Positions 1,970-62,589 are shown, counted from the stretch's first letter. The stretch is DNA of 64,000 nt from the human T2T-CHM13v2.0 reference genome, Homo sapiens (GCA_009914755.4 CP068257.2:15456001-15520000), one strand, 5' to 3'. A program made the numbers and translations. The notes: generated from the sequence alone by a model not told the origin.

Positions 1970-4079
1970 ATAGAGCAACCAGGGTTCTTTTTCCTTTCAG
2001 TCCTTCCTTAATTATCAGTAGGCTGAAAGTAGAAAGTATTAGAATGTGTGCATATCAAAAAGTGATATGAATACAGTTGCATTAGTTTAGGGTAGTGTTT
2101 GCACTGTTTCAGAAAATATATTTGCATATACATTCTACCAAATCTGAATTATGTGATATTGTTGATTCACAATTAGATTCTCTGAAATTTGTATTAAAAC
2201 TGTCATTGTATGAGACAAAGATTAACAGTAAAAATTATGTTAATGATTTAAAATTTTATTTTATTTTTACTTTGACATTAAATAGCAAATAAAAATAAAT
2301 AACTCACAGAGAAACATGAAGTGAAGAAAAAAAACAAATTTTAACACATTTAGCAGGATTTTTTTCCTGAATTTTGAACAAGAGGCCTCACATTTTCATT
2401 TTTACTGGGCCTCACGAATTACATAAGACCGTGTACCCCTACCATCTGACTGGTTTGAGCATAAGATAATTGATGCAGAATTGGTTTTCATTAAGATCAA
2501 AACCTGTGAGGAATTCAGTTACATTTTGCTGTCCTTTCCTGAGCATAGCTTAGTTCTAAATGTTCAATGTTTCTTGTAATAACTGCATGGTGCAAGTCTC
2601 AAAGCTTCCTTTGTCTTGCCAGGACTTAAAACACTAGATAATCTGCCTGTTTCCATAAATTAAAAAAAAAAAAAAGTCTCCTATTTCTCATCTTACCTGT
2701 ACTCCGTAAGCTTGGTTCCTTGATACCAAACCACAGATTATTTTTTCTCACATTAAAATAAGAAACTCTGTGTGTAAGTGCCCAAATAAATCTTTCATGA
2801 CCTTAATTATAGGTAATACTATGTTAAATTTGCCTCCAACAGATGAGAGTACAATCATCTTACTGGAAATGTTGAAATTAAAATATTTTCTTGATAGAAA
2901 TTATAAACCCCTGAAAGCTGACCATAGTAAGCTTATAGATTTTTAGTGAAGTTTTTAAAGTGGTAGTGGTCAGTTGGATGATATATGGATTTACTTCTGA
3001 GAGCAATGCTGTGTTGCTTTATACTTCAAATCAGTGGTTAAAACCAGATTCTCGTAGAGGCCAGGAGGGCTCTAAAGTTGTATTAAGGCCCAACAAGATC
3101 CAAGATTGGATCAAGGATGCCAATCAGATAGCAGTCCAGATCTTTTTCCTATACCATTGCTCCAACTGTTGAAATTCCATGCAATAAGCTAGACCTCTAG
3201 ATAAGCTTTCATTGGGAGAAACCATTGTGGGGTTTAAAGGAAAACACAGCAACAAATCTCTCCCCATCACTTTACCAAATAACCTGATCTTTATAAGACA
3301 AAAAATAATGAAAGATAAAGAGAACATAAAGAATTTTCTAGGAGTTGGCCATAAGATGGCTGATTAGAAGAATATGCAGTCCATGGCACTCACAAAGAGG
3401 AACAAAAGGGGTGAGTGAATACAGCACCTTCAACTGAAATATCCAGATTCTTGCATTGGGACTGATTAGGCAAACAACTCGGCCCATGGAGAATGAAGAA
3501 AAGCAAGGTGGGGCAAAGGCCCACCAGGGAGCAACACAGTGCCAAGGGAACCCCCACCCCCAGCAAAGGGAAGTGATGAGTGATTGTGTGACCCAACTTG
3601 GGAAACCATGCTTCTCCCACAGATCTTTGCAACCTTCAGATCAGGAGATCCCCTCGTGAGCCCACACTACCAGGACCTTGGGTCTGACACATAGAACTGT
3701 GTAGTCTCAGCAGAGCAGCTGCTCAGTCACACACAGAGACCCAGGAGCTTTCCATACTCTGGCCCTGGGATTTCCAACAAACATGTCTGCAACTCAGGCA
3801 AAACAGGAGGTCTGTACAGACCCCTAGGAAGGGGAATGAATCCAAGGAGCCAAGCAGTGTCATTCTGCAGGCCCCACTTCCATGGCACCTCACAAGATAA
3901 GACTCACTGGTTTGGAATTCCAGTGAGCCAATGGCAACAGGGTAGAGCCTGCCTGAGACAGGACAGAGTTCCAGTCCTCCAGGGGAGGAGTGGCTGCCAT
4001 GTCTATAGTCCAGTCAACTCAGCTGTTCCAGCCTGCCAGTTTTGGAGAGTGCAAATGGCCCGGTCAAGGAAGGGTCCCT

Positions 4080-4500
4080 GCCAAGGCAGCACAGCTGCTT
4101 TACCAGATCATGGCCAGACTACTTCTTCAAATGGGACCCTGATCCATTCCTCCTCACTGGGCAGGACCTCCCTGCCAGGGCTTCAACTATCCCAGCCAGT
4201 TTCCTATGAACACAGCTCTGATCTCTCCATGGGGTGGAGCCCCTGGAGGAGGAGCAAGCCATGATCACCACTCTTTGGTTGACTCAGCCATTTCAACTGG
4301 CTTTGGAAAGTCCAAACAATCCAGCCAAGAAAGGCTACCCCCAGAGCAGCACAGCCACTTTGCCAGATCACGGACAGATATCTTCTTTAAGCAGAACTTT
4401 AATCCATTCCTCCTCATGGTTCAGGTCTTCCCAGCTGGGGGCCTTGAGCCACCCCTTTCCATATTCTATGGCCAACAGAGCTCTAATTTTCTTCTGGGAC
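4080..4500 (+). repeat. Tandem duplication (about 2 x 180 bp) inside the L1 5'UTR
   Basis: The block CCAAGGCAGCACAGCTGCTTTACCAGATCATGGCCAGACTACTTCTTCAAATGGGACCCTGATCCATTCCTCCTCACTGGGCAGGACCTCCC... recurs as CCCCAGAGCAGCACAGCCACTTTGCCAGATCACGGACAGATATCTTCTTTAAGCAGAACTTTAATCCATTCCTCCTCATGGTTCAGGTCTTCCC... Overlapping ORFs in the track (3836-4601) read the same diverged peptide twice. Confidence 0.7.
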
Positions 4501-5178
4501 AAAGTGTCCCATGGGTGGGGCAGTCTGCCATGGTGGCTGTTCGGGCATCTCAGTCAATCCAGCCTGTGGGCCCTGAAGAGCCCATAGTGAACAGAGTCTG
4601 AAAGGATCACTAACACAGCATACCTGCTCTACCAAAAAGCACCCAGACTGCTCCTTTAAGTGAGCACCTGATCCTGTTCCTCCTGACAGGGTGAGACCTC
4701 CAAACGGGTCTCCAGCTACCTCCTACTGGCACATTTGGGCTGGCAACTGGTCAATACCCCGCTGGGTGAAGCTTCCAGAGGAAGGAGCAGGCTGTCATCT
4801 TTTCTGTTTCCCAAGCTTCACTGGTGATACCTCTAGATATGGGAAAAACCAAGGCAATTAGGGTCCAGAGTGGACCCCAAGCAAGCTTCAGCAGCCCTAC
4901 AGAAGAGTGGCATATTTAAAGAAAAATAAGCAAACAGAAAACAACAGCAACAAAAAAGACCCCACAAAACTCCATTAAAAGGTTAGCATCCCCAAAGATC
5001 AAAGGTAGATAAGCCCATAAAGATAAGAAAGAATCAGCACAAAAACACCAAAAACTCAAAAATCCAGAGGGCCCCTTCTCTTCCAGATGACTGCAACACC
5101 TCTGAAGCAAGGGCTCAGAACTGGGCTGAGGCTGAGATGGCTGAAATGATAGAAGTAGAATTCAGAGGGTGAGTAATA

Positions 5179-8700: not shown

Positions 8701-11700
8701 CAGCAGGGCAGTCAAATTTTAAAGCTCCAAAATGATCTCCTTTGATTCTATGTCTCAAATCCAGATTACACCGATGCAAGAAGTGAATTCCCATAGTCTG
8801 GGGCAGCTCCACCCCTGTGGCTTCACAGGGTACAGACTCCCTCCTGGCTCCTTTCACAAGCTGGCATTGAGTGTCTGCAGCTTTTCCAGATGCACGGTTC
8901 AAGCTACCAGTGGATCTACCATTCTGGGGTCTGGAAGATGGTGGCCCTCTTCTCATGGCTCCACTAGGCAGTGCCCCAGTAGTGACTCTGTGTAGGGGCT
9001 CTGATCACACACTTCCCTTCTGTGCTGCTCTAGCAGAGGCTCTCCATGAGGACCCCACCCCTGCAGCCAACTTTTGCCTGGGCATCCAGGCATTTCCATA
9101 CACTTTCTAAAATCTAGGTGGAGGTCCCAAACCTCAATTCTTGACTTCTGTGTACCCGCAGGCTGAATACCACATGGAAACTTCTGAGGCTTGGGACTTC
9201 CACCCTCTGAAGCCACAGCCTGAGCTCTATGTTGGCTCCTTTCAGCCACAGCTAGAGTGGCTGGAACACAGGGCACCAACTCCCTAGGCGGCACACAGCA
9301 TGGGGACCCTGGGTCTGGCCCACAAAACCACTTTTTCCTCCTGGGCATCCAGGCCTCTGATGAGAAGAGCTGCCATGAAGGTCTCTGACATGGCCTGGAG
9401 AAATTTTCACCATGGTCTTGGGGATTAACATTAGTCTCCTTGTTACTTATGTAGATTTCTGCAGCCAGCTTGAATTTCTCCCCAGAAAATTGGTTTTTCT
9501 TTTCTATCACATTGTCAGGCTACAAATTTTCTGAACTTTTACACTCTGCACCTGTTATAAAATTGAATGCCTTTAACAGTACTCAAGTCACCTCTTGAAT
9601 GACTTGCTGCTTAAGAAATTTATTCCACCAGATACCCTAAATCATCTCTCTGAAGTTCAAAGTTTCACAAATCTCTAGGGCAGAGGTAAAATGCTGCCAG
9701 TCTCTTTGCTAAAACATAACAAGAGTCATCTTTGCTCCAGTTCCCAACAAGTTCCTCATCTCCATCTGACACCACCTCGGCCTGAACCTTAATGTCCATA
9801 TCGCTATCAGCATTTTGGGCAAAGCCATTCAAGAAGTCTCTAGGAAGTTCCAAACTTTCCCATATTTTCCTGTCTTCTTCTTAGCCCTCCAAACTGTTCC
9901 AACCTCTGCCTGTTACCCAGTTCCAAAGTCACTTCCACATTTTCAGGTATCTTTTCAGCAACTCCCCACTCTACTTGTACCAACTTACTGTATTAGTTCG
10001 TTACACACTGCTTATAAAGACATGCCCAAAACTGAGAACAAAAAGGGGTTTAATTGGACTAACAGTTCCACATGGCTGGGGAGGCCTCAGAATCATGGTG
10101 GGAGGCAAAAGTCACTTCTTACATGGCAGCGGCAAGAGAAAATTGTGGGAGAAACAAAAGCGGATACCCCTGATAAACTCATCAGATCTTGTGAGGCTTA
10201 TTCACCATAATGAGAATAGCACAGGAAAGACCAGCCCCCATGATTCAATTACCTCCTCCTGTATGCCTCCCACAACACATGGGAATTCTGGGAGACACAA
10301 TTCAAGTTGAGATTTGGGCAGGGACACAGCCAAACCATATCACTCATGGATAGAAGGAATCAATATCATTGAAATGGCCATACTTCCCAAAGTAATTTAT
10401 AGGTTCAATGCTATTCCCATTAAACTACCATTGACATTCTTCACAGAATTAGAAAAAAAAAAACTGTTTTAAAATTCATATGGAACCAAAAAAGAGCCCA
10501 AATAGCAAAGACAATCCTAAGAAAAAAGAACAAAGCTGGAGTCATCACACTACCTGACTTCAAACTATACTACAAGGCTACAGTGACCAAAATAGCATGG
10601 CACTGGTACAGAAACAGACACATAGACCAATGGAACAGAATAGAGAACTCAGAAATAAGATCACACACCTACAACCATCTGATCTTCAACAAACCTGACA
10701 AAAACAAGCAATGGGAAAAGGATTTTCTATTAAATAAATGGTGCTGGGAGAACTGGCTGGCCAGATGCAAAAAAAAATTTTGAACCCAAACCCCTTCCTT
10801 ATACCTTATTCAAAAATTAACTCAAGATGGATTAAAGACTTAAACGTGAAACCCAAAACTATAAAAATTCTACAAGACAATCTAGGCAATACCATTCAGG
10901 ACATAGGCACAGACAAAGATTTTATGACAAAAATGCCTAAAGCAATTGCAACAAAAGCTAAAATTGACAAATGGGATCTAATTGAACTAAAGAGCTTCTC
11001 CACAGCAAAAGAAACTATCATCAAAGTGGACAGACAACCTATAGAATAGGAGAAAATTTTTACAATCTATTCATCTGACAAAGGTCTAACATCCAGCATC
11101 TACAGCGAACTTAAGCAAATTTACAGGAAAAAAAAAAAAAAAAACAACAACAACCACCTCATTAAAAAGTGGGCAATGGACATAAGTGGACACTTCCCAA
11201 AAGAAGACATATATATGGACAAAAAAACATTGAAAAAAAAAGTTCAACGTCACTAATCATTAGAGAAATGCAAATAAAAACCACAGTGAGATATCATTTC
11301 TCACCAATCAGAATGGCTATTATTAAAAAGTCAAAAAATTACAGATGCTCATGAGGTTGTCAGAAAAAGGAATGCTTATGTACTGTTGGTAGGACAGGAA
11401 ATTAGTTCAAACATTATGGAAGACAATTCCTCAAAGATCTAGAAGCAGAAATACCATTTGACCCAGCAATCCCATTACTGTATATATACCCAAAGGAATA
11501 TAAATAATTCTATTATAAAGATACATGCATGTGTATGTTCATTGCAGCACTATTCACAATAGCAAAGACCTAGAACCAATCTAAACACCCTCCAGTGATA
11601 GACTGGATAAAGAACACACCATGGAATACTATGCAGCCATAAAAAGAAACAAGATCATGTCCTTTGCAGGGACATGGGTGGAGCTGGAAGCCATTATCCT

Positions 11701-19887: not shown

Positions 19888-20157
19888 TATTTATTTATTT
19901 GTTTGTTTATGTATTTATTTATCTATTTATTTTGAGACAGGGTCTCACTCTGTCACCCAGGCTGGCGTACAGTGGTGTGATCATGACTCACTGCAGCCTC
20001 AACTTCGTGGGCCAAGATAATCCTCCTGTCTCAGCCTTCCGAGCAGCTGGTTTTGCCATGTTGCCCGGGCTGGTCTCAGATTCCTGGGCTCAAGCAATCC
20101 TCCCGCCTCGGCTTCTCAAATTCCTGGGATTACAGGTGTGACCCACCACACCACGCC
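19888..20157 (-). mobile_element. Alu element (minus orientation) with degenerate T-rich tail and 14-bp TSD
   Basis: Plus strand reads the Alu reverse complement: TTTGAGACAGGGTCTCACTCTGTCACCCAGGCTGGCGTACAGTGGTGTGATCATGACTCACTGCAGCCTCAACTTC...GATTACAGGTGTGACCCACCACACCACGCCTG. The tail is the (TTTA/TTTG)n tract at 19888-19931. Flanked by CTGTGGTTACACTT (19874-19887) and CTGTGGTTACATTT (20158-20171). Confidence 0.9.
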
Positions 20158-20474
20158 TGTGGTTACATTTTTAAATTGCTTTTATCTTTTATACTAAAAT
20201 AATTACACAGTGAATAATATTATACCTGGTGATAGTTTCAAAACAATTCAATAGAGGGACGTAGAGGGGACAACTACAAATGCAAATGGATTGGCCATGA
20301 GTGGACCTTTGCAGGTAGATGGTTCGAATTCATGCTACTGTTCTCTCTCTCCACTTTTGTTTATGTCTCATGTTTCATCTAACAAGAAGCTTTTTTAACT
20401 CTATTAAAATTTGCTGTCATAATAACTAAAAAAGAGCAAAGAAAACAAATTGTTACAAAGGTGGCAAGAGAGGT

Positions 20475-20928
20475 GTCAGGCCTCTGAGCCCAAGCTAAGC
20501 CATCGCATCCCAGGTGACTTGCAGGTATATATGCCCAGATGGCCTGAAGTAACTGAAGAATCACAAAAGAAGTGAAAATGCCCTGCCCCACCTTAACTGA
20601 TGATATGCCACCACAAAAGAAGTGAAAATGGCTGGTCCTTGCCTTAAGTGATGACATTACCTTGTAAAAGTCCTTTTCCTGGCTCATCCTGGCTCAAAAA
20701 GCTCCCCTACTGAGCACCTTCCAACCCCCACTCCTGCCCATCAGAGAACAACCCCCTGTTGACTGTAATTTTCCTTTACCTACCCAAATCCTATAAAATG
20801 GCCCCACCCCTATCTCCCTTCGCTGACTCTCTTTTTGGACTCAGCCTGCCTGCACCCAGGTGATTAAAAGCTTTATTGCTCACACAAAGCCTGTTTGGTG
20901 GTCTCTTCACACGGACGCACATGAAATT
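20475..20928 (+). promoter_or_regulatory. HERV-H 5' LTR (LTR7) with TATA-like box (TATAAAA at 20792-20798) and U5
   Basis: Matches the LTR7 consensus throughout. It contains the characteristic internal direct repeat CACAAAAGAAGTGAAAATG twice. LTR7 is an established promoter in pluripotent cells. Confidence 0.8.
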
Positions 20929-20946
20929 TGGTGCCGTGACTCAGAT
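20929..20946 (+). other. Primer-binding site complementary to the tRNA-His 3' end
   Basis: TGGTGCCGTGACTCAGAT immediately 3' of the LTR. The canonical HERV-H PBS is TGGTGCCGTGACTCGGAT (one mismatch). Confidence 0.8.
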
Positions 20947-21439
20947 CGGGGGACCTCCCTTGGGAGATCAATCCCCTGTCCTCCTGCTCTTTGCTCCATG
21001 AAAAAGATCCACCTATGACCACGGGTCCTCAGACCCACCAGCCCAAGGAACATCTCACCAATTTTAAATCGGGTAAGCGGCCTCTTCTTACTCTCTTCTC
21101 CAACCTCTCTCACTATCCTTCAACCACTTTCTCCTTTCAATCTTGGTGCCACCCTTCAATCTCTCCCTTCTCTTAATTTCAATTCCTTTCATTTTCTGGT
21201 AGAGACAAAGGAGACACATTTTATCTGTGGACCCAAAACTCTGGCACCAGTCACAGACTCAAGAAGGCAGCCTTCCCTTGGTGTTTAATCATTGCAGGGA
21301 TGCCTCTCTGATTATTCACCCCCATTTCAGAGGTGTCCGACCACGCAGGGATGCCTGCCTTGGTCCTTTACCCTTAGCGGCAAGTACCGCTTTTCTGGGG
21401 GCAAGAACCCCCCAACCCCTTCTCTCTGTGTCTCTACCC

Positions 21440-21665
21440 TTTCTCTGCTTTTCTAGGGGCAAGAACCCCCTGATCCCTTATTTCTGTGCCCCAGGATCTT
21501 ATCTCTGCACCCTGATCCCTTATTTCCATGCCCCGACCTCTTATCTCTGTGCCCCGATCCCTTATTTCCATGGTCCAACCTCTTATCTCTGCACCCCTAC
21601 CCCTTATTTCTGCACCCTGACCTCTTATCTCTGTACCCCAACCCCTTATTTCCATGCCCCAACCC
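21440..21665 (+). repeat. Minisatellite (about 9 copies of a 21-24 bp unit) in the HERV-H leader/pre-gag region
   Basis: Alternating units CCCTTATTTCCATGCCCCGAC / CTCTTATCTCTGTGCCCCGAT repeated through 21440-21665. They produce the repetitive peptides seen in ORFs 21227-21883 (+; ...IPYFHAPTSYLCAP...) and 21434-21655 (-; ...EIRGRGAEIRGW...). Confidence 0.8.
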
Positions 21666-23067
21666 CTTTCCCGCTTTTCTGGAGGGTAAGAACTCCCAAA
21701 CCCCTTCCCTCCATGTCTCTAGTCTCTCTTTTCTCTGGGCTTGCCTCCTTCACTATGGGCAACCTTCCACCCTCCATTCCTCCTTCTTCTCCCTTAGCCT
21801 GTGTTCTCAAGAACTTAAAACCTCTTCAACTCACACCTGACCTAAAACCTAAATGCCTTATCTTCTTCTGCAATGCTGCTTGACCCCAATATAAACTCAA
21901 CAGTGGTTCCAAATAGCCAGAAAATGGCACTTTCCATTTATCCATCCTACAAGATCTAAATAACAATTGTCATAAAATGGGCAAACGGTCTGAGGTGCCT
22001 GATGTCCAGGCATTCTTTTATACTTTGTTGCCTCCCTAGTCTCTGTTCCCAATGTGACTCATCCCAGATCCTCCTTCTTTCCCTCCCACCTGTCCCCTCA
22101 GTCCCAACCCCAAGCGTTGCTGAGTCTTTCTAATCTTCCTTTTCTACAGACCCATCTGACCTCTCCCCTCATCGCCAGGCCGAGCCAGGTCCCAATTCTT
22201 CCTTAGCCTCTGCTCCCCAACCCTACAATCCTTTTATCACCTCGCCTCCTCACACCTGGTCCAGCTTACAGTTTCATTCAGCGACTAGCCTTCCCCCACC
22301 AGCCCAGCAATTTCCTCTTAAAAAGGTGGCTGGAGCTAAAGGCATAGTCAAGGTTAATGCTCCTTTTTCTTTATCTGACCTCTCCCAAAATCACTTCGCG
22401 TTTAGGATCTTTTTCATCAAATATAAAAACCCAGCCCAGTTCATAATTCGTTTGGCCGCAACCCTGAGACGCTTTACAGCCCCAGACCCTGAAAGGTCAG
22501 AAGGCTGTCTTATTCTCAATATGCATTTTATTTTATTACCCAGTCTGCTCCTGACATGAAATAAAGCTCCAAAAATTAAATTCTGGCCCTCAGACCCCAC
22601 AACAGGACTTAATTAACCTCACGTTCAAGGTGTACAATAATAGAGTAGAGGCAGCCAAGTAGCAATGTATTTCTGAGTTGCAATTCCTTGCCTCCACTGT
22701 GAGACAAACCCCAGCCACAACTCCAGCACACAAGAACTCCAAACACCTGAACCGCAGCTGCCAGGGGTTCCTCCAGAACCTCCTCCCCCAGGAGCTTGCT
22801 ACAAGGGCTGGAAATCTGGCCACTGGGCCAAGGAATGCCCACAGCCTGGGATTCCTCCTAAGCCATGTCCCATCTGTGTGGGATGCCACTGAAAATAGGA
22901 CTGTTCAACTCACCTGGCAGCCACTTCCAGAGCCCCTGGAACTCTGGCCCAAGGCTCCCTGACTGACTCCTTCCCTGATCTTCTCAGCTTAGCAGCTGAA
23001 GACTGACACTGCCTGATTGCCTCAGAAGCCTACAGGACCATCACAGATGCCCTAGATAACTCTCACA

Positions 23068-25750
23068 GTGGAGGGTAAGTCCATCCCCTTCTTAGTCAAT
23101 ACGGAGGCTACCCACTCCACATTACCTTCTTTTCAAGGGCCTGTTTCCCTTGCCTCCATAACTGTTGTGGGTATTGACAGCCAGGCTTCTAAACCTCTTA
23201 AAACTCCCCAACTCTGGTGCCAACTTAGAAAACATTCGTTTATGCACTCTTTTTTAGTTATCCCCACCTGCCCAGTTCCCTTATTAGGCCAAGACATTTT
23301 AACTAAGTTATCTGCTTCCCTGACTATTCCTGGACTACAGCTGCATCTCATTGCCACCCTTCTCCCCAACCCAAAGCCTCCTTTCCGTCTTCCTCTCATT
23401 TCCCCCCACCTTAACCCACACGTATGGGACATGTCTACTCCTTCCCTGGCAACTGATCACATGCCCCTTACCATCCCATTAAAACCTAATCACCCTTACC
23501 CCACTCAATGCCAATATCCCATCCCACAGCAAGCTTTAAAAGGATTAAAGCCTGTTATCACTCGCCTGCTACAGCATGGGCTTCTAAAACCTATAAACTC
23601 CCCTTACAATTCCCCCATTTCACCTGTCCTAAAACCAGACGTGGCTTACAGGTTAGTTCAAGATCTGCGCCTTATCAACAAAATTGTTTTGCCTATCCAC
23701 CCCGTGGTGCCAAACCCATATACTCTCCTATTCTCTATACATCCCTCCACAATCCATTAGTGTGTTCTAGATCTCAAACATGCTTTCTTTACTATTCCTT
23801 TGCACCCTTCATCCCAGCCTCTCTTCACTTTCTCTTGGACCGACCCTGACACCCATCAGGCTCAGCAAATGACCTGGGCTGTACTGATGCAAGTCTTCAC
23901 AGATGGCCCCTATTATTTCAGTCAAGCCCAAATTTCTTCCTCATCTGTTACCTCTCTTGACATCATAAAAACACATGTGCTCTCCCTGCTGACCATGTCC
24001 GGCTAATCTCCCAAACCCCAATCCCTTCTAAAACACAACAACTCCTTTCCTTCCTAGGCATGGTTAGTGTGGTCAGAATTCTTACACAAGAGCCGGGACC
24101 ACACCCTGTAGCCTTTCTGCCCAAACAACTTGACCTTACTCTTTTAGCCTAGCCCTCATGTCTGCGTGCAGTGGCTGCCACTGCTTTAATACTTTTAGAG
24201 GCCCTAAAAATCACAAACTATGCTCAACTCACTCTCTACAGTTCTCATAACTTCCAAAATCTATTCTCTTCCTCACACCTGATGCATATACTTTCTGCTC
24301 CCCGGCTCCTTCAGCCGTACTCACTCTTTGTTGAGTCTCCCACAATTACCATTGTTCCTGGCTCAGACTTCAATCTGGCCTCCCACATTATTCCGGATAC
24401 CACACCTGACCCTCATGACTGTATGTCTCTGATCCACCTGATGTTCACCCCATTTCCCCACATTTCCTTCTTCCCTGTTTCTCACCCTGATCACACTTGG
24501 TTTATTGATGGCAGTTCCACCAGGCCTAATCGCCACTCACCAGCAAAGGCAGGCTATGCAATAGTATCTTCCACATCTGTTATTGAGGCTACCACTCTGC
24601 CCCCCTCCACTACCTCTTAGCAAGCCAAACTAGTTGCCTTAACTCAGGCCCTTACTCACTGTTGCAAAAGGACAATGCGTCAATATTTATACTGACTCTA
24701 AATATGCCTTTCATATCCTGCACCACCATGCTATTATATAGGCTGAAAGAGGTTTCCTCACTAGCAAGGGTCCTCCATCATTAATGCCTCTTTAATAAAA
24801 ACTCTGCTCAAGGCCGCTTTACTTCCAAAGGAAGCTGAAGTCATTCACTGCAAAGGCCATCAAAAGGGGTTAGATCCCATTGCTCTAGGCAATGCTTATG
24901 CTGATAAGGTGGCTAGACAAGCAGCTAGCTTTCCACCTTCTGTCCCTCATGGCCAGTTTTTCTCCTTCACATCAGTCACTCCCACCTACTCTCCCGCTGA
25001 AACTTCCACCTATCAATCTCTTCCCACACAAGGCAAATGGTTCTTAGACCAAGGAAAATATCTCCTTCCAGCCCCACAGGCCCATTCTATTCTGTCGTCA
25101 TTTCATAACCTCTTCCATGTAGGTTACAAGCCGCTAACCCATCTTGTAGAACCTCTCATTTCCTTTCCATCCTGGAAATCTATCCTCAAGGAAATCACTT
25201 CTCAGTGTTCCATTTGCTATTCTACTACCCCTCAGGGATTGTTCAGGCCCCCTCTCTTTCCTACACATCAAGCTTGAGGATTTGCCCCTGCCCAAGACTG
25301 GCAAATTGACTTTACTCACATGCCCCAAGTCAGAAAACTAAAATATCTCTTAGCCTAGGTAGACACTTTCACTGGATAGGTAGAGGCCTTTCCTACAGGG
25401 TCTGAGAAGGCCACTGCGGTCATTTCTTCCCTTCTGTCAGACATAATTCCTCGGTTTGGCCTTCCCACCTCTATACAGTCCGATAGCACACCAGCCTTTA
25501 TTAGTCAAATCAGCCAAGCATTTTTTCAGACTCTTAGTATTCAGTGAAACCTTTATATCCCTTACAGTCCTCAGTCTTCAGGAAAAGTAGAACAGACTAA
25601 TAGTCTTTTAAAAACACCTCACCAAGCTCAGCCACCAACTTAAAAAGGACTAGACAATACTTTTACCACTTGCCCTTCTCAGAATTCAGGCCTGTCCTCA
25701 GAATGCTACAAGGTACAGACCATTTGAGCTCCCGTAGAGACGCTCCTTTA
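23068..25750 (+). pseudogene. HERV-H pro-pol remnant (protease, reverse transcriptase, RNase H, integrase fragments; multiple frameshifts/stops)
   Basis: ORFs 23068-23760, 23508-23849, 24171-24620 and 24909-25277 plus intervening frames carry gammaretrovirus-like PR/RT/RNaseH/IN motifs as listed for the provirus. No frame is intact across a whole domain set. Confidence 0.75.
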
Positions 25751-26374
25751 TATTAGGCCCCGGTCTCATTCCAGACACCGGACCAACTTGGACTGTGCCC
25801 CAAAAAACTTGTCATCCCTACTATCTTCTGTCTACTCATACTCCTATTCACCATTCTCAACTACTCATACATGCCCTGCTCTTGTTTACACTGCTGATTT
25901 ACACTGTTTCTCCAAGCCATCACAGCTGATATCTCCTGGTGCTATCCCCAAACCGCCACTCTTAACTCTTAAAGTAAATAAATAATCTTTGCTGGCAGGA
26001 CTATGCTGAATCCCCTTAGGCACTCTCTAATTAGATGTCCTAGGTCCTCCCAATTCTTAGACCTTTAATACCTGTTTTTCTCCTTCTCTTATTCCGTTTA
26101 GTTTTTCAATTCATACAAAACCACATCCAGACCATCACCAATAATTCTAAATGACAAATGTTTCTTCTAACAATCCCACAATGTCACCCCTTACCACAAA
26201 ATCTTCCTTCAGCTTCATCTCTCGCACTCTAGGTTCCCACGCCGCCCCTAATCCCGCTTGAAGCAACCCTGAGAGACATCACCCATTCTCTCTCTCCATA
26301 CCACCCCCAAAAATTTTCACCACCCCAACACTTCAACACTATTTTGTTTTATTTTTCTTATTAATATAAGAAGG

Positions 26375-26790
26375 CAGGAATGTCAGGCCTCTGAGCCCAA
26401 GCTAAGCCATCGCAGCCCCTGTGACTTGCAGGTATATATGCCCAGATGGCCTGAAGTAACTGAAGAATCACAAAAGAAGTGAAAATGCCCTGCCCGGCCT
26501 TAACTGATGACATTCCACCACAAAAGAAGTGAAAATGGCCAGTCCTTGCCTTAAGTGATGACATTACCTTGTAAAAATCCTTTTCCTGGCTCATCCTGGC
26601 TCAAAAAGCTCCCCTACTAAGCACCTTGCAACCCCCACTCCTGCCCACCAGAGAACAATCCCCCTTTGACTGTAATTTTCCTTTACCTACCCAAATCCTA
26701 TAAAGTGGCCCCACCCCTGTCTCCCTTCGCTAACTCTCTTTTTGGACTCAGCTTTGCTGATCTCAACTAATAAAAGTGTTTTTGTTGACA
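26375..26790 (+). mobile_element. HERV-H 3' LTR (LTR7), 3' portion (U5) truncated or replaced
   Basis: TGTCAGGCCTCTGAGCCCAAGCTAAGCCATCGCAGCCCC...CCTATAAAGTGGCCCCACCCCTGTCTCCCTTCGCTAACTCTCTTTTTGGACTCAGC matches the 5' LTR. By my manual count the two copies differ at about 20 positions in 375 bp. It then diverges to TTTGCTGATCTCAACTAATAAAAGTG..., where the 5' LTR continues CTGCCTGCACCCAGGTGATTAAAAGCTTTATTGCTCACAC... Confidence 0.75.
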
Positions 26791-28756
26791 TTTTTCTAAC
26801 AGAAAAACAATGCATTCTGAGAAACAGAATAATAACGTGGAACAACTGCTTCTTCCTGCCAAAACTTTATTTGAAGTTTGTTAAAAAAAAAAAAAGTTAA
26901 GACAAACAATTATAATGACTTTTCATTAGCAAAAAGCTCTACTTTAAAAATAAAACTCTAGGACAACTTTTTTCAGATTCAGCATACAGGTGAAATTCAA
27001 TTTATAACTCTCTGAAAACCTGTTGGAGCACTTTCCTGTTGCTTTTCTCATTTTATATCACATTCTGTGCTATTTTTAAAGAAACTCAATGTGCCAAGTG
27101 GAAAATGTTTTTACATGCTATGAAAGATAAAAAGTGCTTTTTCCCCCAAGGATGTTTTACACATTAACCTGTTTTCCTTTGCTTTCTATTTTTCACATGC
27201 CCCTTGCTCATATGTTTTGACTGGTTTTGCTCCAATGAAGGCAAAGCCACGCCCATCAGGAACTTCAAAGTCATTGAAACTCACCAAAGACCAACTCCTA
27301 TGATCAGCCCGTGGACAATACCGGTTATTTTCAAACCAGTCCTTAGTCACCAGGATTCTTGACAAGCTCCTGCAAAGCAGACACAGGTTTGTCTTGGTGG
27401 AAGCTGCTGACTGTCATCCCCTCAGTTTGAAACTCGAGGTCCTGCTTTGGTGTGGAAGCAGAGCTTTTCTTGGCAGGTGAAAGATTGCTTAGCAAAGGAA
27501 ACGGTGTCAAATGGAATATGTCAGAACCTATCTCAGAACAAGGTCACCCTGACCCTAAATGAATTCCACAAAAACTCATTGGAGACACTGTTTTGCAAAT
27601 CTGGACTTCAACCAAAAAGAAAGAAAAGTGGACCACAGTAACCAAAGCTTTCCTCATCCTTCAGGTTGAGGTCTGGAAAACAGAATCAAAGCCTCCCTTC
27701 AATTCCTCCTCACCACCTGCCTTACCCAGATGTACATTTTAAATTTAATCATAAATCACATAAAACAGGTAACACAGATGAATTCAAATGAGGTGGATTG
27801 CATGCATGGAAGGCCAGTGCAGTATAGTTTACCAATGATTACAAGTATACTTTCTGCTTAATGTACATCACAACCATGTTAAGTGAGTTACTACTAACCA
27901 CATTTCATGGGTGATGAAATGAGATATGCCATTTTGGGGGCCTGCCTGTGATAGGCCACACAGAAAATAAAGAGGAAAATGCATCCTTGGGCTAGGCTCT
28001 TTCCGATCTTTCTCTCAACATTCTTTCGATGGCAGCAGCTCAGAGACAATGAGGACCTATCAATCTGCCTTTCTCCAATTCTCCTACCCCAGTCACCTAA
28101 TGTTACCTAAACCCAAAAAGGAAATATATACAACTTCAAACTCTTCTCTAAACACTAATTCTCCTGGTCGAAGCTTCAGCAAGGATGCCTTCCACCTCTC
28201 AAGGGCACCCCACCGACTGATTCCTCTGTGTCCTGAAGATCCCTATTGTGGCTAGTGGATAATAACGCTCAGGAATGTACTTCTACCCCATGAACCAGAA
28301 CACTGTAAAACTGTTGTTCACATTTATCCAATAAAATCCAGACAATACATCTGGTTCTTTTTATATTTTTAATAGTGGAAATGTGTTTGTGATTTAAAAA
28401 CTTAGTTTCTGTCAAAAGAAGTATAATACATAGTATTCAACAGTTTCAGGATCTCTTGTCAAAAGAGATAATTGCAGAACTTTAACAGACTAACATGGTA
28501 CTATATAGAAAAATGACCTCTAAAATATAACACATGGTTTTAGCTTCTAGGGATGATATCTGAAAGTTAATCCGACATTTATAACCAACTGACCAGGATG
28601 TTCAAAAACTCATGGCCCTAAGGCGTCTAGGAGACAATTAAGAAGAATGGACATTACTCACAATGGGAACAATTTCCAGCTTTGCAGAGGAACACAGATT
28701 TGGGGGGCTTTGCAGCCGTCCCTCATAATGGGAACAATTCATATTTTCTTCCCTTA

Positions 28757-28963
<207 letters not shown>

Positions 28964-31900
28964 ACGAGGGAACTTTGCGAAAGTGTGGTTAGAAAACTAG
29001 AGTTGGATAGTTAGGCTTATTTTAAGAAGTTTAAATATTATTTAGAAGAGAAAAAGAAACTACTTCTTATCCCTGACTCATCCACTCTTTCTCATTTTCA
29101 TGTTTTTGCCTGACGTTGTTGCTCATCAATTTTGACTTAAGAAAATTCTAGCAACATTTATAGATTTTGCCAAAATTCAGCTTCTTCCCAAATCAATCTA
29201 TAAGAAGGCTCTTCCTTAAACATAATTTTTATATCTATGAACTGCACTAGCATTTACTATATATTTTTATCACTCTCACCATTACTGGATAATAAATAAA
29301 AGCTCATTAAAAGAGTTAACAAAACATATTTATTTTAGGCATCCTGAAAAAAAGATTCAATTTTATTATCATTTCTACAATAAGTATTGAAGAAAGGAGA
29401 ATTTAAATTACTTCATATACGTGATAAAGGAAAACATATACAAGGCAAATAAACATCTTAGATCATGACATATAAAATAATAGATTATTACTAAAGATTA
29501 AAATACTTTCTTAAGAATTAAAGCAATTCTAAAAGCAATAGTAAATAACATTCTTTCTAGTGATCAGACACTGGATACTATGTTTGAGATAGACAGTGAA
29601 TTGGGAATGTTGTTTTACAGAAGCTCCTACCTTGCAAGGACAGGCAAGTTTAAATGTCAGCTAGAAAACTATCTTGAGTTTTCAGTAATGTAAGATTTTC
29701 CTATTCAATTTCACACTTTAAATTTTATATATATATAAAAGTCATGATTCTATTGAAAAAATTTCTAAATTGGTACATTTAACTTTATATTCTATTATTA
29801 TAAAATACAAACAGATTATTAAGCACAGCTGCACAAAGTCGTCATTTCAAAAGAGTTTTAAGAACTGGATAAGCAAATAAGTGTAACCTTAGTCATGTTA
29901 GGAATAAGAGAATTCAGTGGAACAATAGTGTGTGAGTTTCCTTTCAATTTTTTCATCCTCACAATGGAGAATCAGCTGGGGAGCCAGATTTACGAATAAT
30001 ATTTATTCCACTTGTGTTACATAGAGTGTTCTTATGTTAAGAAAGTTGTCAGGATTTTAATTAACATTGCGAAAATTTATTTACATAAATATGCAAAGAA
30101 ATCACACTAATATTGAAGAGCCACAAAACAATAAAAAATTATTAAAGAAAGACAATCTCAGAGCACTAGCGACCTGTCCTTAGTGTGTTCCATACAAATT
30201 TGTTGTATTGCCTGTAAGCCATTTATCTCTTCCTTATCAATTCTTTCCTTTCTTTCCACAAAATTATCCCTAGCTAGTTCACAGGATTGTTATAAACATC
30301 AAATGAAATGATGAATATTCATGTACTTCATAAGTTATAAAATGCTTATCCAATATGAAACAGTGTTTTTATTGTGTGTGTTGAATAAGAAAGGAAAGTT
30401 TGAGGTTTCCAGCTAATTGTCTTTCAAATTTGAAACACGTGTCATAGTAATTATCCTTTTGTATCTCTTTTTTTAGAATTCTTGAGTGATGGGTGCTACA
30501 GATCTGAAAATCATTATGCTGGAATATTTCCACTCCTCCCAACCACAAATATGTGTCTATCAAGAGAGGCTGTATGTTGCTGTGAATCCCAAATGGTATT
30601 AATTGAATTAGAGGTTCTAAAATATCATTGTGAACATTTAAAAAGTTCTGCCATTTCTAATTGGTTCATGGTTGTGTAACAAAAATTGTGAATGTATTTT
30701 GAAGCAACTCAGAATGATAAAATGAGATTTTACTCAAACCCTTCATATAATTTCACCTTGATTCTAGAATCATTGGGTGAGTTACATCAAGTATTTCAAT
30801 AAGCAATAAAAAAGTTAGAATGGGGGGAAAGGACCAGATGGCCAACTAGATGCAGCTAGGAAATACCTCTCCCATTGAAAGAAAGCAGAATATGAAGTAA
30901 ACCATCATATTTTGAACAGATCTTTTGAGAGAAAATACTGAACATCAATAAAGGGGGGATGCAGAAACTGAGGTTGAAGACAGAGAAAGCTGGGAAGCCT
31001 ACACTGAGTCACCGAGTGTCAGACTGGCTCCTGGTCCTGAACAAGTCCTAAGGAAGGGTTAAGTGAAGGAAGTCCAGGGCACCACACTCCCATCATGGAC
31101 CTCTGGGATCCTAGCTACAAAAGATCCCATGACTCCATAGACATTTGAATTGGCAGGGGAAACTGCCTGGAAAGTAAGAAGAAGAAGAGCTCAAAACTGT
31201 GTGGAGCTCAGAAGGTGTTATAGCTCATGGTACAGCTGCAGCAAAACATCACCCAGGCATTCATCCCCCAAGGCTCCCCATCTGGATCCAAGTGACTATA
31301 ACAACTGCTGACTGTCAGGCCAGGAGAGAGCAGGATTGTCTTTCCTCTGGGACCGGAAAGCATCTGATCCCTGTGCTGCCCCTTGTCTGCCAGCCCCTTC
31401 CAAGGCCACGGGTCCGGCCACTCCCACAAGAGAGTGAACACAGAACAGCCTCCACTTCCCATCTGAGTGTTTTGCTGGCAACCTGGGATTAGTTCAGCAC
31501 CCCAAGTACAACTGGTGCTTGACCCTGAGGGGCCAGAGGAAAAAGCTGTGGCCCAATTCCCAAACCCCTAGGTTTGAGTATACCACCCACAGGTATTGAG
31601 CTGAGATCTGTGGCTAGAGCTTGAGCAGGGGAGGAGCCTCTACTCTCAGAACACAGAAAACAGTGAGGCACAGGTTTATGTTCAGGCATGGGAGCTGAGC
31701 ATCCCTCCCTCAGCAAGACTGGTGCAGGAAGTGTGTAGCCTGTTGGGCAGCCACAGCTTTTGCCCAAGGCAGCCCCATGGCATGGAACACCTGGAATAGC
31801 CCAGTGATCTGGGTGAAGAAGGCTTCAGACAAATCTAGCTGTTCAGGCCTACTCCTGGGGCAGACAGCAGAGGGAAACTGGGTCAGGGGAACACAAGCTG

Positions 31901-51961: not shown

Positions 51962-56988
<5,027 letters not shown>

Positions 56989-59900: not shown

Positions 59901-62589
59901 TAAAGCAGGACTCTCTCACTTATTACATTTCAAAGAACAATAAACTGCTTATATAATTTTCTTCACACCATGTTGGAACTTATCCTTATGCCTTTGCTCA
60001 CACTGAGTTGGGCTTAAAATATTTCCTCCTCCTTTGTAAAGTCTTAGATATCCTTTCATTTATTCTTTAAGACTCATCTTTGTGTCACCTTCTAAGACAT
60101 CTTCTTTATTGCCCTACTAAAAACCACATATACCTACTCCCAGGCAAAATGATGCCCCTTTATAAAGATCTTTATTGCTGCACATATGGTATTACGGTAC
60201 AATTAACAGTTTATATGTCATTCTTCCTTACAAGACAGAATATTGTTTCAGGAAGGTTTTTTGTTTTTTAAGTGACAGCCTCTCTATGCACCTAGGCTGG
60301 ACTGCAGTGGTTACTCATGGGGACAATTATGGGACATTATATTCTTCACATCCTGAGCAAACTGATGCTCCTGCCTTGGCCTCTGGAGTAGCTAGAACTG
60401 CAGACATGGATCACCATGACTGGTTTCAGGTAGCTTTTGAGTGTAGAAGAATAACCCAATAGTTGCCTGATCTAGGCTGCCTTTTGGCCTATTCTTCATC
60501 AAGCTGTGGGTCAGAGTGGGCATGAGTCCTTGCTTAGATCTCTATGTGTATTACTTCTGGGGCACAGTTCTACTTATGGTGACGGAGGAACAATCAATAA
60601 ATCAACCTGCACTGCACAAGCACATTTTGTACAACTGCTTTCATCACATCTGCTAACATTGTTTTGGCAAAGCAAATCATATGAACAAACACAACATCAG
60701 GGTGCAGCCCCAGAGGAGGCTGTGAGTGCATATTATCATGACAAGGAAGTGAAGAGTTGTGACCAATAGGTCAAATACTATAGAATAACAACCAGTTCTC
60801 ATTTATCTTTATGTGTATATCCAGTGCCTGGGACTATACTTGACCATTGTGAGTCCTCAAGACATGTATGAAGAATGAATGCTCTGACACTGCTGATAGT
60901 GTTCCCACACTCATTCGTTCTGTGAGGCATACTCCAAACCACATCAAACTACCAAAGATTTGAAACACAGGATGTTGAACTCCCCAATTATATTTATCGA
61001 GACATTCAACAGCTTCCAAACAGAAATACAAAGATAGAGATTTTCATACAGTAAACTGTTAGGTTATAATTTGGGCAGAAGAACATAAAGTTGTAGCCTT
61101 AGACATGGAATTTATTCATTTCCGTTTGTGGTATATTGTTTTCCAAAATGCCTACAACGATATCTCCTTTCCCATGTGTGCCTTTGCAATAGGACCATGC
61201 CACCCATCCCAGCAAGGGGTACAGTCTGTTTCTACCTTCCTTCAATCTAGGATATCCTTGCGACTTGCTTGACCAGTAGAATGTGGTGGAAGTGACCCTA
61301 TGCAGTTATGGGTCTACGTCTTAAGAGGTCTTGCAATATTTTTCTAAGAGGTCTTGCAATATTTTTCTTAGTTTCTGCAGAATTTTATCTTTTACATAAA
61401 GAAACACAGGCAAGACAACTGAATAATGAGCAACCATGTGAAGAGAGCCAAGACACATGGAGGAGGACCAAAAGACCCTACCAGCATTCACCACCAGTAG
61501 ACCATCTTGGATCCCTTGGCCCCAGTTGAACTTTTTCAGCCAATACCAGGTGAAACAGAGACAAGCCGTCCCCTCTGAGCACTGCCTGAATTCCTCACCC
61601 ACAGAATCATGAGTAATAAAACAGTTATTTTAAGTTTCTAAGTTTTGGAGTGGTTTATAATACAGCAATAGGTAACTAAAAGAGCTCAAAACTACTCCTA
61701 AAAGAACAGAGAAAATTGATACTGAGAACTCTGACATAAACCAGCTGGAATCATTTTAAAAATAACTGTTACAGAATTGCCACATCTGAAATAATGAACA
61801 TTTTGAATTGATTCCTAAAAAAATAAGCACAGAAAATTTCAGACTAAAAGATAGCCAACCTCCAAGTATTTCTTGTCTAAACATGAATATATGGATATAA
61901 ATATTGTTCACTTAGACTTTTTTAGAAAAATCATCAAAATGTCAAAGCATTTTAAACATTAATAAATATGATATAAATAATATATTTAAGTATATTATAA
62001 TTTAAAGTGTTTTCACTTTTGTATAATCTTTGTTCCATTAAAAAAAACCTTCAATTTCTATAAACATTTAAACTCATATAAAAATAGTTATTAGTAAGTA
62101 AGTCAACTAGGAGATGGATTCCCAGCAAAATTCAACTAGCTATTTCTGGGACAGTCCACTGATAATATGAACTTAAGATCAACTGATCTTCTGAAAGGTA
62201 CAATTTCAAATCAAGCAGAAGAGGTAACAGTTTTTAGGAATTCTTTTTTTTCCAATTTAGTGAGATAAAAATGCGCTCATTTAGATGCCAAAATCATTTA
62301 AAGCTTGTGTAATGAATGTAAAAATAAATACACTCTAAGACTGAATTCAATTCCACCTGAATATATTACAGGGAGAATATGTCACATCCAATATTGAGGG
62401 AAACACGAAGCTTCTTAGGAAATGTAAATATTTCTACTTTAGCAAGTCTAATCTCATTCATCATCATCAGTGTGTCCCCTCCACCCCAACCAAAAAAGAA
62501 GAAGAAGAAGAAATAGTTTGGAAAGAGTCCAAAGATCATTAAAAGTGAACCAAAAAAAATCCTATTAATTTTGCATTTTGGAAAAAGGA

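What the first reader, a model, noticed from the sequence alone, without database searches (positions are those of the whole stretch)
20475..26790. HERV-H provirus with intact-looking LTR7 5' LTR, tRNA-His PBS and a truncated 3' LTR
Seen in sequence: the LTR7 5' LTR retains its TATA-like box (TATAAAA, 20792) and U5. It is followed immediately by TGGTGCCGTGACTCAGAT, which is the tRNA-His PBS with one mismatch. A leader minisatellite and decayed PR-RT-RNaseH-IN frames follow, with env missing, and then a second LTR7. The second LTR7 matches the first up to ...TTTTTGGACTCAGC and then diverges, so the 3' U5 is lost or replaced and the 3' TSD cannot be read. By my manual count the two LTRs differ at about 20 of 375 aligned positions. 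Established knowledge: LTR7/HERV-H units are among the most transcriptionally active TEs in human pluripotent cells and seed lncRNAs and chimeric transcripts. This is the one element in the window with plausible regulatory activity. None of the pol-derived ORFs (the longest is 230 aa) is intact.
Basis: partly seen in the sequence, partly recalled or inferred. Interest (0 to 1): 0.5.

Follow-up and report, generated by a model that had tools for sequence, protein, structure and literature searches.

The report
Decayed HERV-H provirus, LTR7u1 type
This is an ordinary, long-dead copy of the human endogenous retrovirus HERV-H. Its LTRs belong to the LTR7u1 subfamily, which is reported as not transcribed in embryonic stem cells, so it is a routine genome fossil and not a likely active stem-cell promoter.

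Summary
A full 5' LTR (20474-20926) is followed by TT and a tRNA-His primer binding site (20929-20946, 17/18). Next come a 21/42-bp leader minisatellite, gag remnants and stop-riddled PR, partial RT, RNase H and IN. No env domain is detectable. A polypurine tract precedes a second LTR (26381-26752).

The two LTRs align without indels and differ at 19 of 372 positions (5.1%). Homology ends after ...GGACTCAGC, so the last 81 bp (rest of R plus U5) and the target-site duplication are missing.

Against published subfamily consensi, both LTRs are closest to LTR7u1 (about 95%). All four sites that separate 7u1 from the stem-cell-active 7up carry the 7u1 state. The internal part is HERVH-int: 41 of 44 published HERVH FISH probes hit in order. 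RT lacks YXDD.

By annotated length alone, the locus probably is hg38 chr21:17121442-17127757. That locus is listed as 7u1 with no RNA-seq or GRO-seq signal in H1 cells. It is KAP1/ZNF534/ZNF90/H3K9me3 positive and also NANOG/H3K4me3/H3K27ac positive.

Verdict: a known, annotated, non-coding provirus of the common deleted form, and a weak regulatory candidate at best. Low interest.

The parts
20474..20926 (+). 5' LTR, full length (453 bp), LTR7u1 subfamily. TATAAAA at 20792-20798, ATTAAA poly(A) signal at 20863-20868, and the 8-bp AAAAGAAG SOX2/3 insertion within 20608-20624.
   Evidence: 95.0% identical to the LTR7u1 consensus, against 93.8% for 7up2 and 92.9% for 7up1. All 4 diagnostic sites carry the 7u1 state. 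Signal positions. Only 4 of the 12 consensus CpGs are left.
20929..20946 (+). Primer binding site complementary to the 3' end of tRNA-His. It matches 17 of 18 positions; the mismatch is G to A at a CpG. It is preceded by the spacer TT (20927-20928).
   Evidence: Unique in the window. The reference sequence is both the HERV-H PBS primer (PMC3253121) and the reverse primer for human tRNA-His-GTG-1-7 (PMC11662652). Other tRNA 3' ends recalled from memory match at 12 of 18 or fewer.
21073..21078 (+). Candidate leader 5' splice site, CGG|GTAAGC. This is inferred, not tested.
   Evidence: Read directly from the sequence. No transcript data are available.
21468..21668 (+). Leader minisatellite with a 21/42-bp period, about 4.8 x 42 bp.
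21802..23043 (+). Decayed gag, including a nucleocapsid zinc-knuckle remnant CYKGWKSGHWAKEC at 22797-22838 in which the second Cys is lost.
   Evidence: 41 of 44 HERVH Stellaris probes map in order to 21817-23149. The region is 89.5% identical to 399 nt of a HERVH gag consensus. qPCR gag primers match with 1-2 mismatches. No Pfam gag hit.
23044..23322 (+). Protease remnant, inside the 230-aa ORF 23068-23760.
   Evidence: Pfam RVP, E 7.7e-10. shHERVH#1 and #2 target sequences match exactly at 23104 and 23180.
23629..23922 (+). Reverse transcriptase, N-terminal part only. The YXDD catalytic motif is absent.
   Evidence: Pfam RVT_1 covers profile positions 2-131 of 205, E 9e-06, below the curated cut-off. 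No Y[VMIL]DD in any frame.
24492..24926 (+). RNase H remnant, in a different frame from PR and RT.
   Evidence: Pfam RNase_H, E 9.4e-08
25068..25571 (+). Integrase remnant: HHCC zinc finger at 25068-25223 and catalytic core at 25287-25571, interrupted by stops.
   Evidence: Pfam Integrase_H2C2 and rve, E 1.7e-13
25572..26367 (+). Post-pol region, about 0.8 kb, where a full env of about 1.7 kb would lie. No env domain is detectable.
   Evidence: No TLV_coat or other Pfam hit in any frame, even at E up to 10
26368..26380 (+). Polypurine tract AAGAAGGCAGGAA, abutting the 3' LTR.
   Evidence: Read directly from the sequence
26381..26752 (+). 3' LTR, truncated. U3 plus at least the first 21 nt of R are present (372 of 453 bp). 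Its TATA box is mutated to TATAAAG, and the rest of R, the poly(A) signal and U5 are lost.
   Evidence: 19 of 372 differences from the 5' LTR with no indels. 94.8% identical to the 7u1 consensus. All consensus alignments stop at 26752. The published R-region primer site ends exactly at 26752.
26753..26790 (+). Flank that keeps a weak in-register resemblance (about 25 of 40) to the lost R segment. It carries AATAAA (26769-26774) followed by a GT/T-rich stretch. This is probably why repeat annotation would run the LTR to 26790.
   Evidence: An anchored alignment scores higher than all but 0.1% of random window segments, but an unanchored local alignment is not significant (p 0.15). RepeatMasker-like Smith-Waterman with the 7u1, 7up2 and 7d1 consensi extends to 26790.

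Best explanation
The region is a fixed, degenerate HERV-H (HERVH-int flanked by LTR7) provirus of the common internally deleted type, with LTRs of the LTR7u1 subfamily. A gammaretrovirus-like element that used tRNA-His as its primer integrated here. The 5.1% LTR-LTR divergence and the published 7u1 amplification window of about 14-20 Mya together place integration in the great-ape or hominoid ancestor.

Since then the element has accumulated dozens of stops and frameshifts. It carries the family-typical deletions: the RT catalytic centre is gone and env is almost entirely gone. A later deletion, or less likely an aberrant integration, removed the last 81 bp of the 3' LTR and the 3' target-site duplication.

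It encodes nothing functional and cannot replicate. Any present-day role could only be as cis-regulatory DNA or as a non-coding transcript template. For that role it belongs to a subfamily that is typically NANOG-bound but not transcribed in primed human ESC, so weak or no promoter activity is expected.

Shown here: the anatomy, family and subfamily assignment, coding decay and the truncation point. Inferred: the age, the deletion mechanism, the genomic placement and the transcriptional state.
For: - **LTRs:** 95.0% and 94.8% identical to the LTR7u1 consensus, and 4 of 4 sites that separate 7u1 from 7up carry the 7u1 state.
- **PBS:** 17 of 18 to tRNA-His, unique in the window.
- **Internal region:** collinear with HERVH-int, with 41 of 44 FISH probes in order, exact shRNA targets and 89.5% identity to a gag consensus.
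- **Domain order:** PR, RT, RNase H, IN by Pfam, with no env.
- **Coding decay:** no YXDD motif and 52-82 stops per frame.
- **LTR comparison:** the LTRs are collinear with 19 of 372 differences, Jukes-Cantor distance 0.053.
- **Truncation:** homology ends at 26752, with no R-U5 remnant and no TSD.
- **Literature:** 7u1 amplified 14-20 Mya, is 'untranscribed' in ESC, and 85% of its loci are NANOG-bound.
- **Candidate locus:** the only listed 7u1 element of matching span (6316 bp) is chr21:17121442-17127757. It is flagged RNA 0, GRO 0, KAP1/ZNF534/ZNF90/H3K9me3 1 and NANOG/H3K4me3/H3K27ac 1.
Against: - Subfamily assignment rests on a margin of 1-2% identity plus four sites, in LTRs that are themselves 5% diverged from the consensus.
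- Genomic placement rests only on annotated length (6316 bp against 6316-6317 bp here). It was not confirmed by sequence.
- No expression or chromatin data could be examined for this exact sequence.
- The 5' LTR does keep its TATA box, the 8-bp SOX2/3 insertion needed for 7up activity, a poly(A) signal and a leader splice-donor-like site. Activity in some cell state, such as naive pluripotency, embryo stages or tumours, is therefore not excluded.
- The species (human or another ape) was not established.
Confidence: 0.87

Rival explanations
1. The 5' LTR is an active pluripotency-specific promoter that drives a HERV-H lncRNA or chimeric transcript, as the well-known LTR7up loci do.
For: The 5' LTR is full length with TATAAAA and the intact 8-bp AAAAGAAG SOX2/3 insertion, and there is a GTAAGC donor-like site in the leader. 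The candidate chr21 locus is flagged NANOG, H3K4me3 and H3K27ac positive.
Against: Both LTRs carry the 7u1 state at all four sites that separate 7u1 from 7up. Only 2% of non-7up LTR7 loci are highly expressed, and 7u1 is described as untranscribed even though it has the same SOX motif. The candidate locus is flagged RNA 0, GRO-seq 0, chimeric 0, KLF4 0 and SOX2 0, and is KAP1/ZNF534/ZNF90/H3K9me3 positive. Eight of 12 consensus CpGs are lost.
Confidence: 0.1
2. The 3' LTR is not simply truncated. Its R region was replaced by a related but divergent sequence, through a hybrid LTR, gene conversion or recombination with an old LTR-like remnant. This would explain the in-register similarity and the AATAAA at nearly the original poly(A)-signal position.
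For: The 38-40 nt after the break keep about 62% in-register identity to R. The anchored alignment is beaten by only 0.1% of random window segments. RepeatMasker-like scoring extends the LTR alignment to 26790.
Against: An unanchored local alignment is not significant (p 0.15). Similarity stops after 38 nt with nothing resembling U5 in either orientation. AATAAA occurs about twice per kb in this AT-rich window. No second LTR7-like copy exists nearby.
Confidence: 0.06
3. The element is an L1-mediated processed pseudogene of a HERV-H transcript, or belongs to a different gammaretrovirus-like family such as HERV-F or HERVH48.
For: A 3' end without U5 and without a TSD is atypical for a canonical integration.
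Against: A complete U3 is present at the 5' end, whereas a processed copy would start at R. There is no poly(A) tail at the 3' end. The LTRs are 95% LTR7u1, the PBS is tRNA-His and the HERVH-int probes are collinear.
Confidence: 0.01

Closest known systems
HERV-H / RTVL-H provirus of the common deleted form (HERVH-int flanked by LTR7), about 800-900 copies in the human genome
   Same: It shares the LTR7 LTRs, the tRNA-His PBS, the leader minisatellite, the gag-PR-RT-RNase H-IN order, near-total loss of env, the pol-internal deletion that removes the RT active site, and a total size of about 6.3 kb.
   Different: The 3' LTR lacks its last 81 bp (part of R plus U5), so there is no 3' TSD. Otherwise nothing is unusual.
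LTR7u1 subfamily (Carter et al. 2022, eLife 11:e76257)
   Same: It is the best consensus match for both LTRs. All four sites that separate 7u1 from 7up carry the 7u1 state. It has the block 2a/2b 50-bp tandem duplication and the 8-bp AAAAGAAG insertion. The LTR divergence fits the 14-20 Mya wave.
   Different: It is about 5% diverged from the consensus. Eleven changes are shared by both LTRs, including a GG insertion at 20524-20525, and so were mostly present in the integrating virus or arose in parallel at CpGs.
LTR7up1/7up2-driven HERV-H loci (e.g. the ESC-expressed HERV-H lncRNAs)
   Same: The overall LTR architecture is the same, including the SOX2/3 8-bp motif, at 93% identity.
   Different: It lacks the 7up-specific substitutions: GAATATGCCC, GTGTAAATGG, AAAAAGCAC and CCACCCTTATC are all in the 7u1 state. 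The candidate locus shows no RNA or GRO signal and no KLF4 or SOX2 peak.

Membership tests
HERV-H (HERVH-int/LTR7) provirus | LTRs homologous to the LTR7 group consensus | tested here: met
   95.0% and 94.8% identity to LTR7u1, and 74-91% to the other LTR7, 7B, 7C and 7Y consensi
HERV-H (HERVH-int/LTR7) provirus | Primer binding site complementary to the 3' end of tRNA-His, immediately after the 5' LTR | tested here: met
   17 of 18 at 20929-20946, 2 nt after the LTR. Reference sequence from PMC3253121 and PMC11662652.
HERV-H (HERVH-int/LTR7) provirus | Internal sequence homologous to HERVH-int | tested here: met
   41 of 44 HERVH FISH probes in order, exact shRNA targets, and 89.5% identity to a 399-nt gag consensus. 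Only the gag-PR part could be compared with reference DNA. Pol is supported by the Pfam domain order.
HERV-H (HERVH-int/LTR7) provirus | Two LTRs in direct orientation, with a polypurine tract before the 3' LTR | tested here: met
   LTRs at 20474-20926 and 26381-26752, collinear. AAGAAGGCAGGAA at 26368-26380.
HERV-H (HERVH-int/LTR7) provirus | Short target-site duplication flanking the provirus | tested here: not met
   The 3' LTR end is missing, and no copy of the 5' flank 4-6-mer lies within 350 nt after the break. This is expected after a deletion and does not argue against membership.
Common deleted (RTVL-H2-like) HERV-H form | env almost entirely absent and an internal pol deletion | tested here: met
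   No env Pfam domain in any frame. Only about 0.8 kb lies between IN and the 3' LTR. RVT_1 covers profile positions 2-131 of 205 and there is no YXDD.
LTR7u1 subfamily | Best match to the 7u1 consensus, with the 7u1 state at sites that distinguish it from 7up1/7up2 | tested here: met
   Ranked first for both LTRs. 4 of 4 diagnostic sites. The margin over 7up2 is only 1-2%.
LTR7up (ESC-active) subfamily | 7up-specific substitutions in blocks 2a, 2b and downstream | tested here: not met
   All four sites are in the non-7up state in both LTRs
LTR7up (ESC-active) subfamily | 8-bp AAAAGAAG SOX2/3 insertion in block 2b (shared with 7u1) | tested here: met
   CCACCACAAAAGAAGTG at 20608-20624 and 26515-26531
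LTR7up (ESC-active) subfamily | LTR-initiated transcription and KLF4/SOX2 binding in hESC | tested here: inconclusive
   No expression tool was available. The locus matching by length (chr21:17121442-17127757) is flagged RNA 0, GRO 0, KLF4 0 and SOX2 0, but the placement is unproven.

The most novel reading that the evidence does not exclude
The loss of the 3' LTR poly(A) region may be functionally compensated by the flank. The flank supplies a canonical AATAAA plus a GT-rich element 17 nt past the break, in near register with the lost ATTAAA. Under this reading the locus still produces a properly terminated HERV-H non-coding RNA in some state not covered by H1 data, such as naive pluripotency, pre-implantation stages or tumours. 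The residual in-register similarity would then reflect a hybrid or converted R region and not chance.
Probability: 0.04. Interest if true: 0.25.

Novelty: already known. Interest (0 to 1): 0.08.

Why it matters
It matters little. HERV-H proviruses of this form number in the hundreds and are fully catalogued. This copy is very probably already listed as LTR7u1_chr21_2ltr_int_fr_1314.

The useful outcome is a correction of expectation. 'LTR7' alone does not imply stem-cell promoter activity. The subfamily here (7u1) and the flags of the probable locus point to a KZFP/KAP1-targeted element with no detectable transcription, even though it keeps the SOX2/3 motif.

It could serve as one more natural negative control for working out what, beyond the 8-bp SOX motif, makes 7up LTRs active.

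Tried and rejected
1. **Finding this LTR in the Carter et al. alignments.** I searched the stored alignment supplements for locus-specific k-mers. Nothing was found, because the stored files are cut at 400k characters.
2. **Exact-protein look-ups.** I looked up the 230-aa pol ORF and a flanking 68-aa ORF in public assemblies to obtain orthologous or identical contigs. Neither is on record.
3. **Metagenome scan.** An exact 39-mer from the 3' flank gave 0 hits.
4. **Possible minus-strand terminal exon at about 27215-27390.** It has an acceptor-like site, a 58-aa ORF and a downstream AATAAA. There was no Pfam hit. The only PDB hit was a dihydropteridine reductase at E 0.48, and tblastn with a remembered human QDPR sequence found nothing there. 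I treat it as chance.
5. **Searches for the missing R-U5.** I looked for a displaced or inverted R-U5, for a TSD, and for other LTR7 fragments in the window. None were found.
6. **Rfam scan of the window.** No family reached its gathering score.
7. **Pfam on the post-pol region.** I looked for an env transmembrane-tail remnant and found none. A resemblance of ...RLVFQFIQNHIQTIT... to the gammaretroviral TM cytoplasmic tail is only a recollection and is not claimed.
8. **Processed-pseudogene and other-family readings.** Both were rejected (see rival explanations).

The large protein-database searches were not used, because no open question here depended on them.


Full report
**Context.** The window is AT-rich, strongly CpG-depleted DNA (CpG observed/expected 0.05-0.35). 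It contains Alu-like repeats and L1 ORF1 and ORF2 remnants, so it looks like primate genomic sequence. Rfam finds nothing at gathering thresholds. The species was not determined.

**Checking the observation.** Two direct repeats about 5.9 kb apart frame the region.
- The 5' copy begins with TGTCAGG at 20474 and runs to ...CATGAAA at 20926. It is followed by TT and then TGGTGCCGTGACTCAGAT at 20929-20946.
- That 18-mer differs at one position, a CpG to CpA change, from TGGTGCCGTGACTCGGAT. It is the only such site in 64 kb, with 0.01 expected by chance.
- The reference 18-mer is both the published HERV-H PBS-tRNA-His primer (PMC3253121) and the start of the reverse primer used to amplify human tRNA-His-GTG-1-7, meaning the complement of its 3' end including CCA (PMC11662652).
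- 3' ends of other tRNAs, recalled from memory, match at 12 of 18 or fewer.
- TATAAAA sits at 20792-20798 and ATTAAA at 20863-20868.

The second LTR runs from 26381 to 26752 and is preceded by the purine tract AAGAAGGCAGGAA. It is collinear with the first LTR without any indel and differs at 19 of 372 positions (5.1%, Jukes-Cantor 0.053). Identity stops abruptly after ...TTTTTGGACTCAGC. The remaining 81 bp of the LTR are absent: the rest of R with the poly(A) signal, plus U5. They are not found elsewhere in the window in either orientation, and the 5' flank tetra- to hexamer is not repeated downstream. The only corrections are the start (20474) and the true end of homology (26752, not 26790).

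**Internal anatomy.**
- TRF finds the leader minisatellite at 21468-21668 with a 21/42-bp period.
- Pfam scans of the three forward frames, with stops masked, give RVP (23044-23322), a partial RVT_1 (23629-23922, profile positions 2-131 of 205 only), RNase_H (24492-24926), the integrase zinc finger (25068-25223) and the integrase core (25287-25571). These are split between two frames.
- No YXDD motif exists in any frame, so the RT active site is deleted. Each frame has 52-82 stops.
- A nucleocapsid zinc-knuckle remnant, CYKGWKSGHWAKEC, lies at 22797-22838.
- Only about 0.8 kb separates integrase from the 3' LTR. No env domain is detectable there even at permissive thresholds.
- The longest pol ORF is 230 aa.

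**Family membership of the internal part.** I tested this against published reagents. Of 44 Stellaris FISH probes designed on another HERV-H copy, 41 hit 21817-23149 in strict order with 4 or fewer mismatches. Two HERVH shRNA targets match exactly. The qPCR gag primers match with 1-2 mismatches. A 399-nt HERVH gag consensus aligns at 89.5% identity. Taken together, this is a HERV-H provirus of the common deleted form. The literature describes 800-900 such copies lacking almost all of env.

**LTR subfamily.** I took the subfamily consensus sequences from Supplementary file 7 of Carter et al. 2022.
- Both LTRs are closest to LTR7u1 (95.0% and 94.8%). Next come 7up2 and 7up1 (about 93%), then 7o and 7d (about 90%). 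7Y, 7C and 7B are far behind. blastn gives the same ranking.
- At the four positions that separate 7u1 from 7up, both LTRs carry the 7u1 state.
- The 50-bp block 2a/2b duplication and the 8-bp AAAAGAAG SOX2/3 insertion shared by 7up and 7u1 are intact in both LTRs.
- Eleven differences from the consensus are shared by both LTRs. Nine are private to the 5' LTR and seven to the 3' LTR.
- Only 4 of 12 consensus CpGs survive in the 5' LTR.
- With commonly used rates the LTR divergence gives roughly 11-26 My. This is compatible with the 14-20 Mya amplification reported for 7u1.

**What this means for activity.** In Carter et al., robust transcription in H1 ESC and iPSC is essentially restricted to 7up1 and 7up2. 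About 33% of those are highly expressed, against 2% of all other LTR7 loci. 7u1 is explicitly called untranscribed despite carrying the same SOX2/3 motif, although 85% of 7u1 loci overlap NANOG peaks.

The paper's locus tables list all 7u1 elements. Among the proviral ones, only chr21:17121442-17127757 (+, 'LTR7u1_chr21_2ltr_int_fr_1314') has a span of 6316 bp. That fits this element if the annotation runs the 3' LTR through a 38-nt stretch of weak in-register similarity to 26790. A RepeatMasker-like Smith-Waterman alignment with the 7u1, 7up2 or 7d1 consensus does exactly that. The resulting span here is 20474 or 20475 to 26790, which is 6316-6317 bp.

That locus is flagged as follows:
- RNA 0, GRO-seq 0, chimeric transcript 0, KLF4 0, SOX2 0.
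- KAP1 1, ZNF534 1, ZNF90 1, H3K9me3 1.
- NANOG 1, H3K4me3 1, H3K27ac 1.

This placement rests on length alone. I consider it probable, not proven. I could not retrieve the locus sequence because the stored alignments are truncated.

**The 3' truncation.** The break lies at least 21 nt into R. The published R-region primer site ends exactly at 26752. The simplest reading is a post-integration deletion that removed the rest of the LTR and an unknown length of flank. An aberrant integration of a 3'-truncated DNA cannot be excluded without orthologous loci.

The 38-40 nt after the break retain about 62% in-register identity with the lost R segment, and they include AATAAA at 26769-26774. An anchored test puts this in the top 0.1% of random window segments. 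I treat it as most likely chance and record it as a minor unexplained point.

**Rivals.**
- The active-promoter reading is disfavoured by the subfamily and by the candidate-locus flags, but it was not directly tested.
- A hybrid or converted R region is weakly suggested and unlikely.
- A processed pseudogene or a different ERV family is excluded by the U3-containing 5' LTR, the absence of a poly(A) tail, and the family-specific matches.

**Verdict.** The element is an already catalogued, non-coding, replication-dead HERV-H provirus of the LTR7u1 subfamily with a truncated 3' LTR. It is at most a NANOG-bound, KZFP/KAP1-targeted piece of chromatin, with no evidence of transcription. It is ordinary, and interest is low.

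Noticed in passing
window 26753-26790: Immediately after the 3' LTR break, the flank keeps about 25 of 40 in-register matches to the lost R segment. It carries AATAAA (26769-26774) followed by GTGTTTTTGTTG, close to where the LTR's own ATTAAA would lie. The anchored test gives p about 0.001 and the local alignment p 0.15.
   Followed up: partly
window 27215-27390 (- strand): A 58-aa ORF (..ILVTKDWFENNRYCPRADHRSWSLVSF..) is preceded by an acceptor-like ctgctttgcag and followed by AATAAA on the minus strand at about 26871-26866. It could be a terminal exon or just chance. There was no Pfam hit, and the only PDB hit (a dihydropteridine reductase, E 0.48) was not supported by tblastn.
   Followed up: partly
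window 21227-21883 (+): A 218-aa ORF runs through the leader minisatellite and encodes a repetitive P-Y-F-x-A-P / S-Y-L-C peptide. It is probably an accident of the repeat.
   Followed up: no
window 26469-26565 and 20562-20658: A 50-bp tandem duplication in U3 (TRF: 1.9 copies, 87% matches). It corresponds to the block 2a/2b duplication that Carter et al. describe for 7up and 7u1.
   Followed up: yes
window 28821-28964: A short Alu-like fragment (about 145 bp, matching other Alu-like copies in the window) ends in A17. It is flanked by a 9-bp direct repeat GGAACTTTG at 28810-28818 and 28969-28977.
   Followed up: no
window 19919-20153: Alu-like sequence about 320 bp upstream of the provirus. 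It matches other copies at 13.8, 15.2, 38.0, 46.2 and 49.0 kb.
   Followed up: no
window 62000-64000: The 5' part of a LINE-1 element. The segment is relatively CpG-rich (observed/expected 0.34), followed by an ORF1 C-terminal region at 63644-63985 (Pfam Tnp_22_dsRBD, E 3e-46). The element runs off the window end.
   Followed up: partly
window 54688-56384: A string of LINE-1 ORF2 fragments on the + strand (RVT_1, E 2.5e-18 for 54688-55065), belonging to a separate, decayed L1 copy.
   Followed up: partly
window 3836-4601 and 8953-9510: Several 117-185-aa ORFs lie in somewhat GC-richer segments (GC 0.45-0.46). They have no Pfam match and are likely old repeat-derived sequence.
   Followed up: partly
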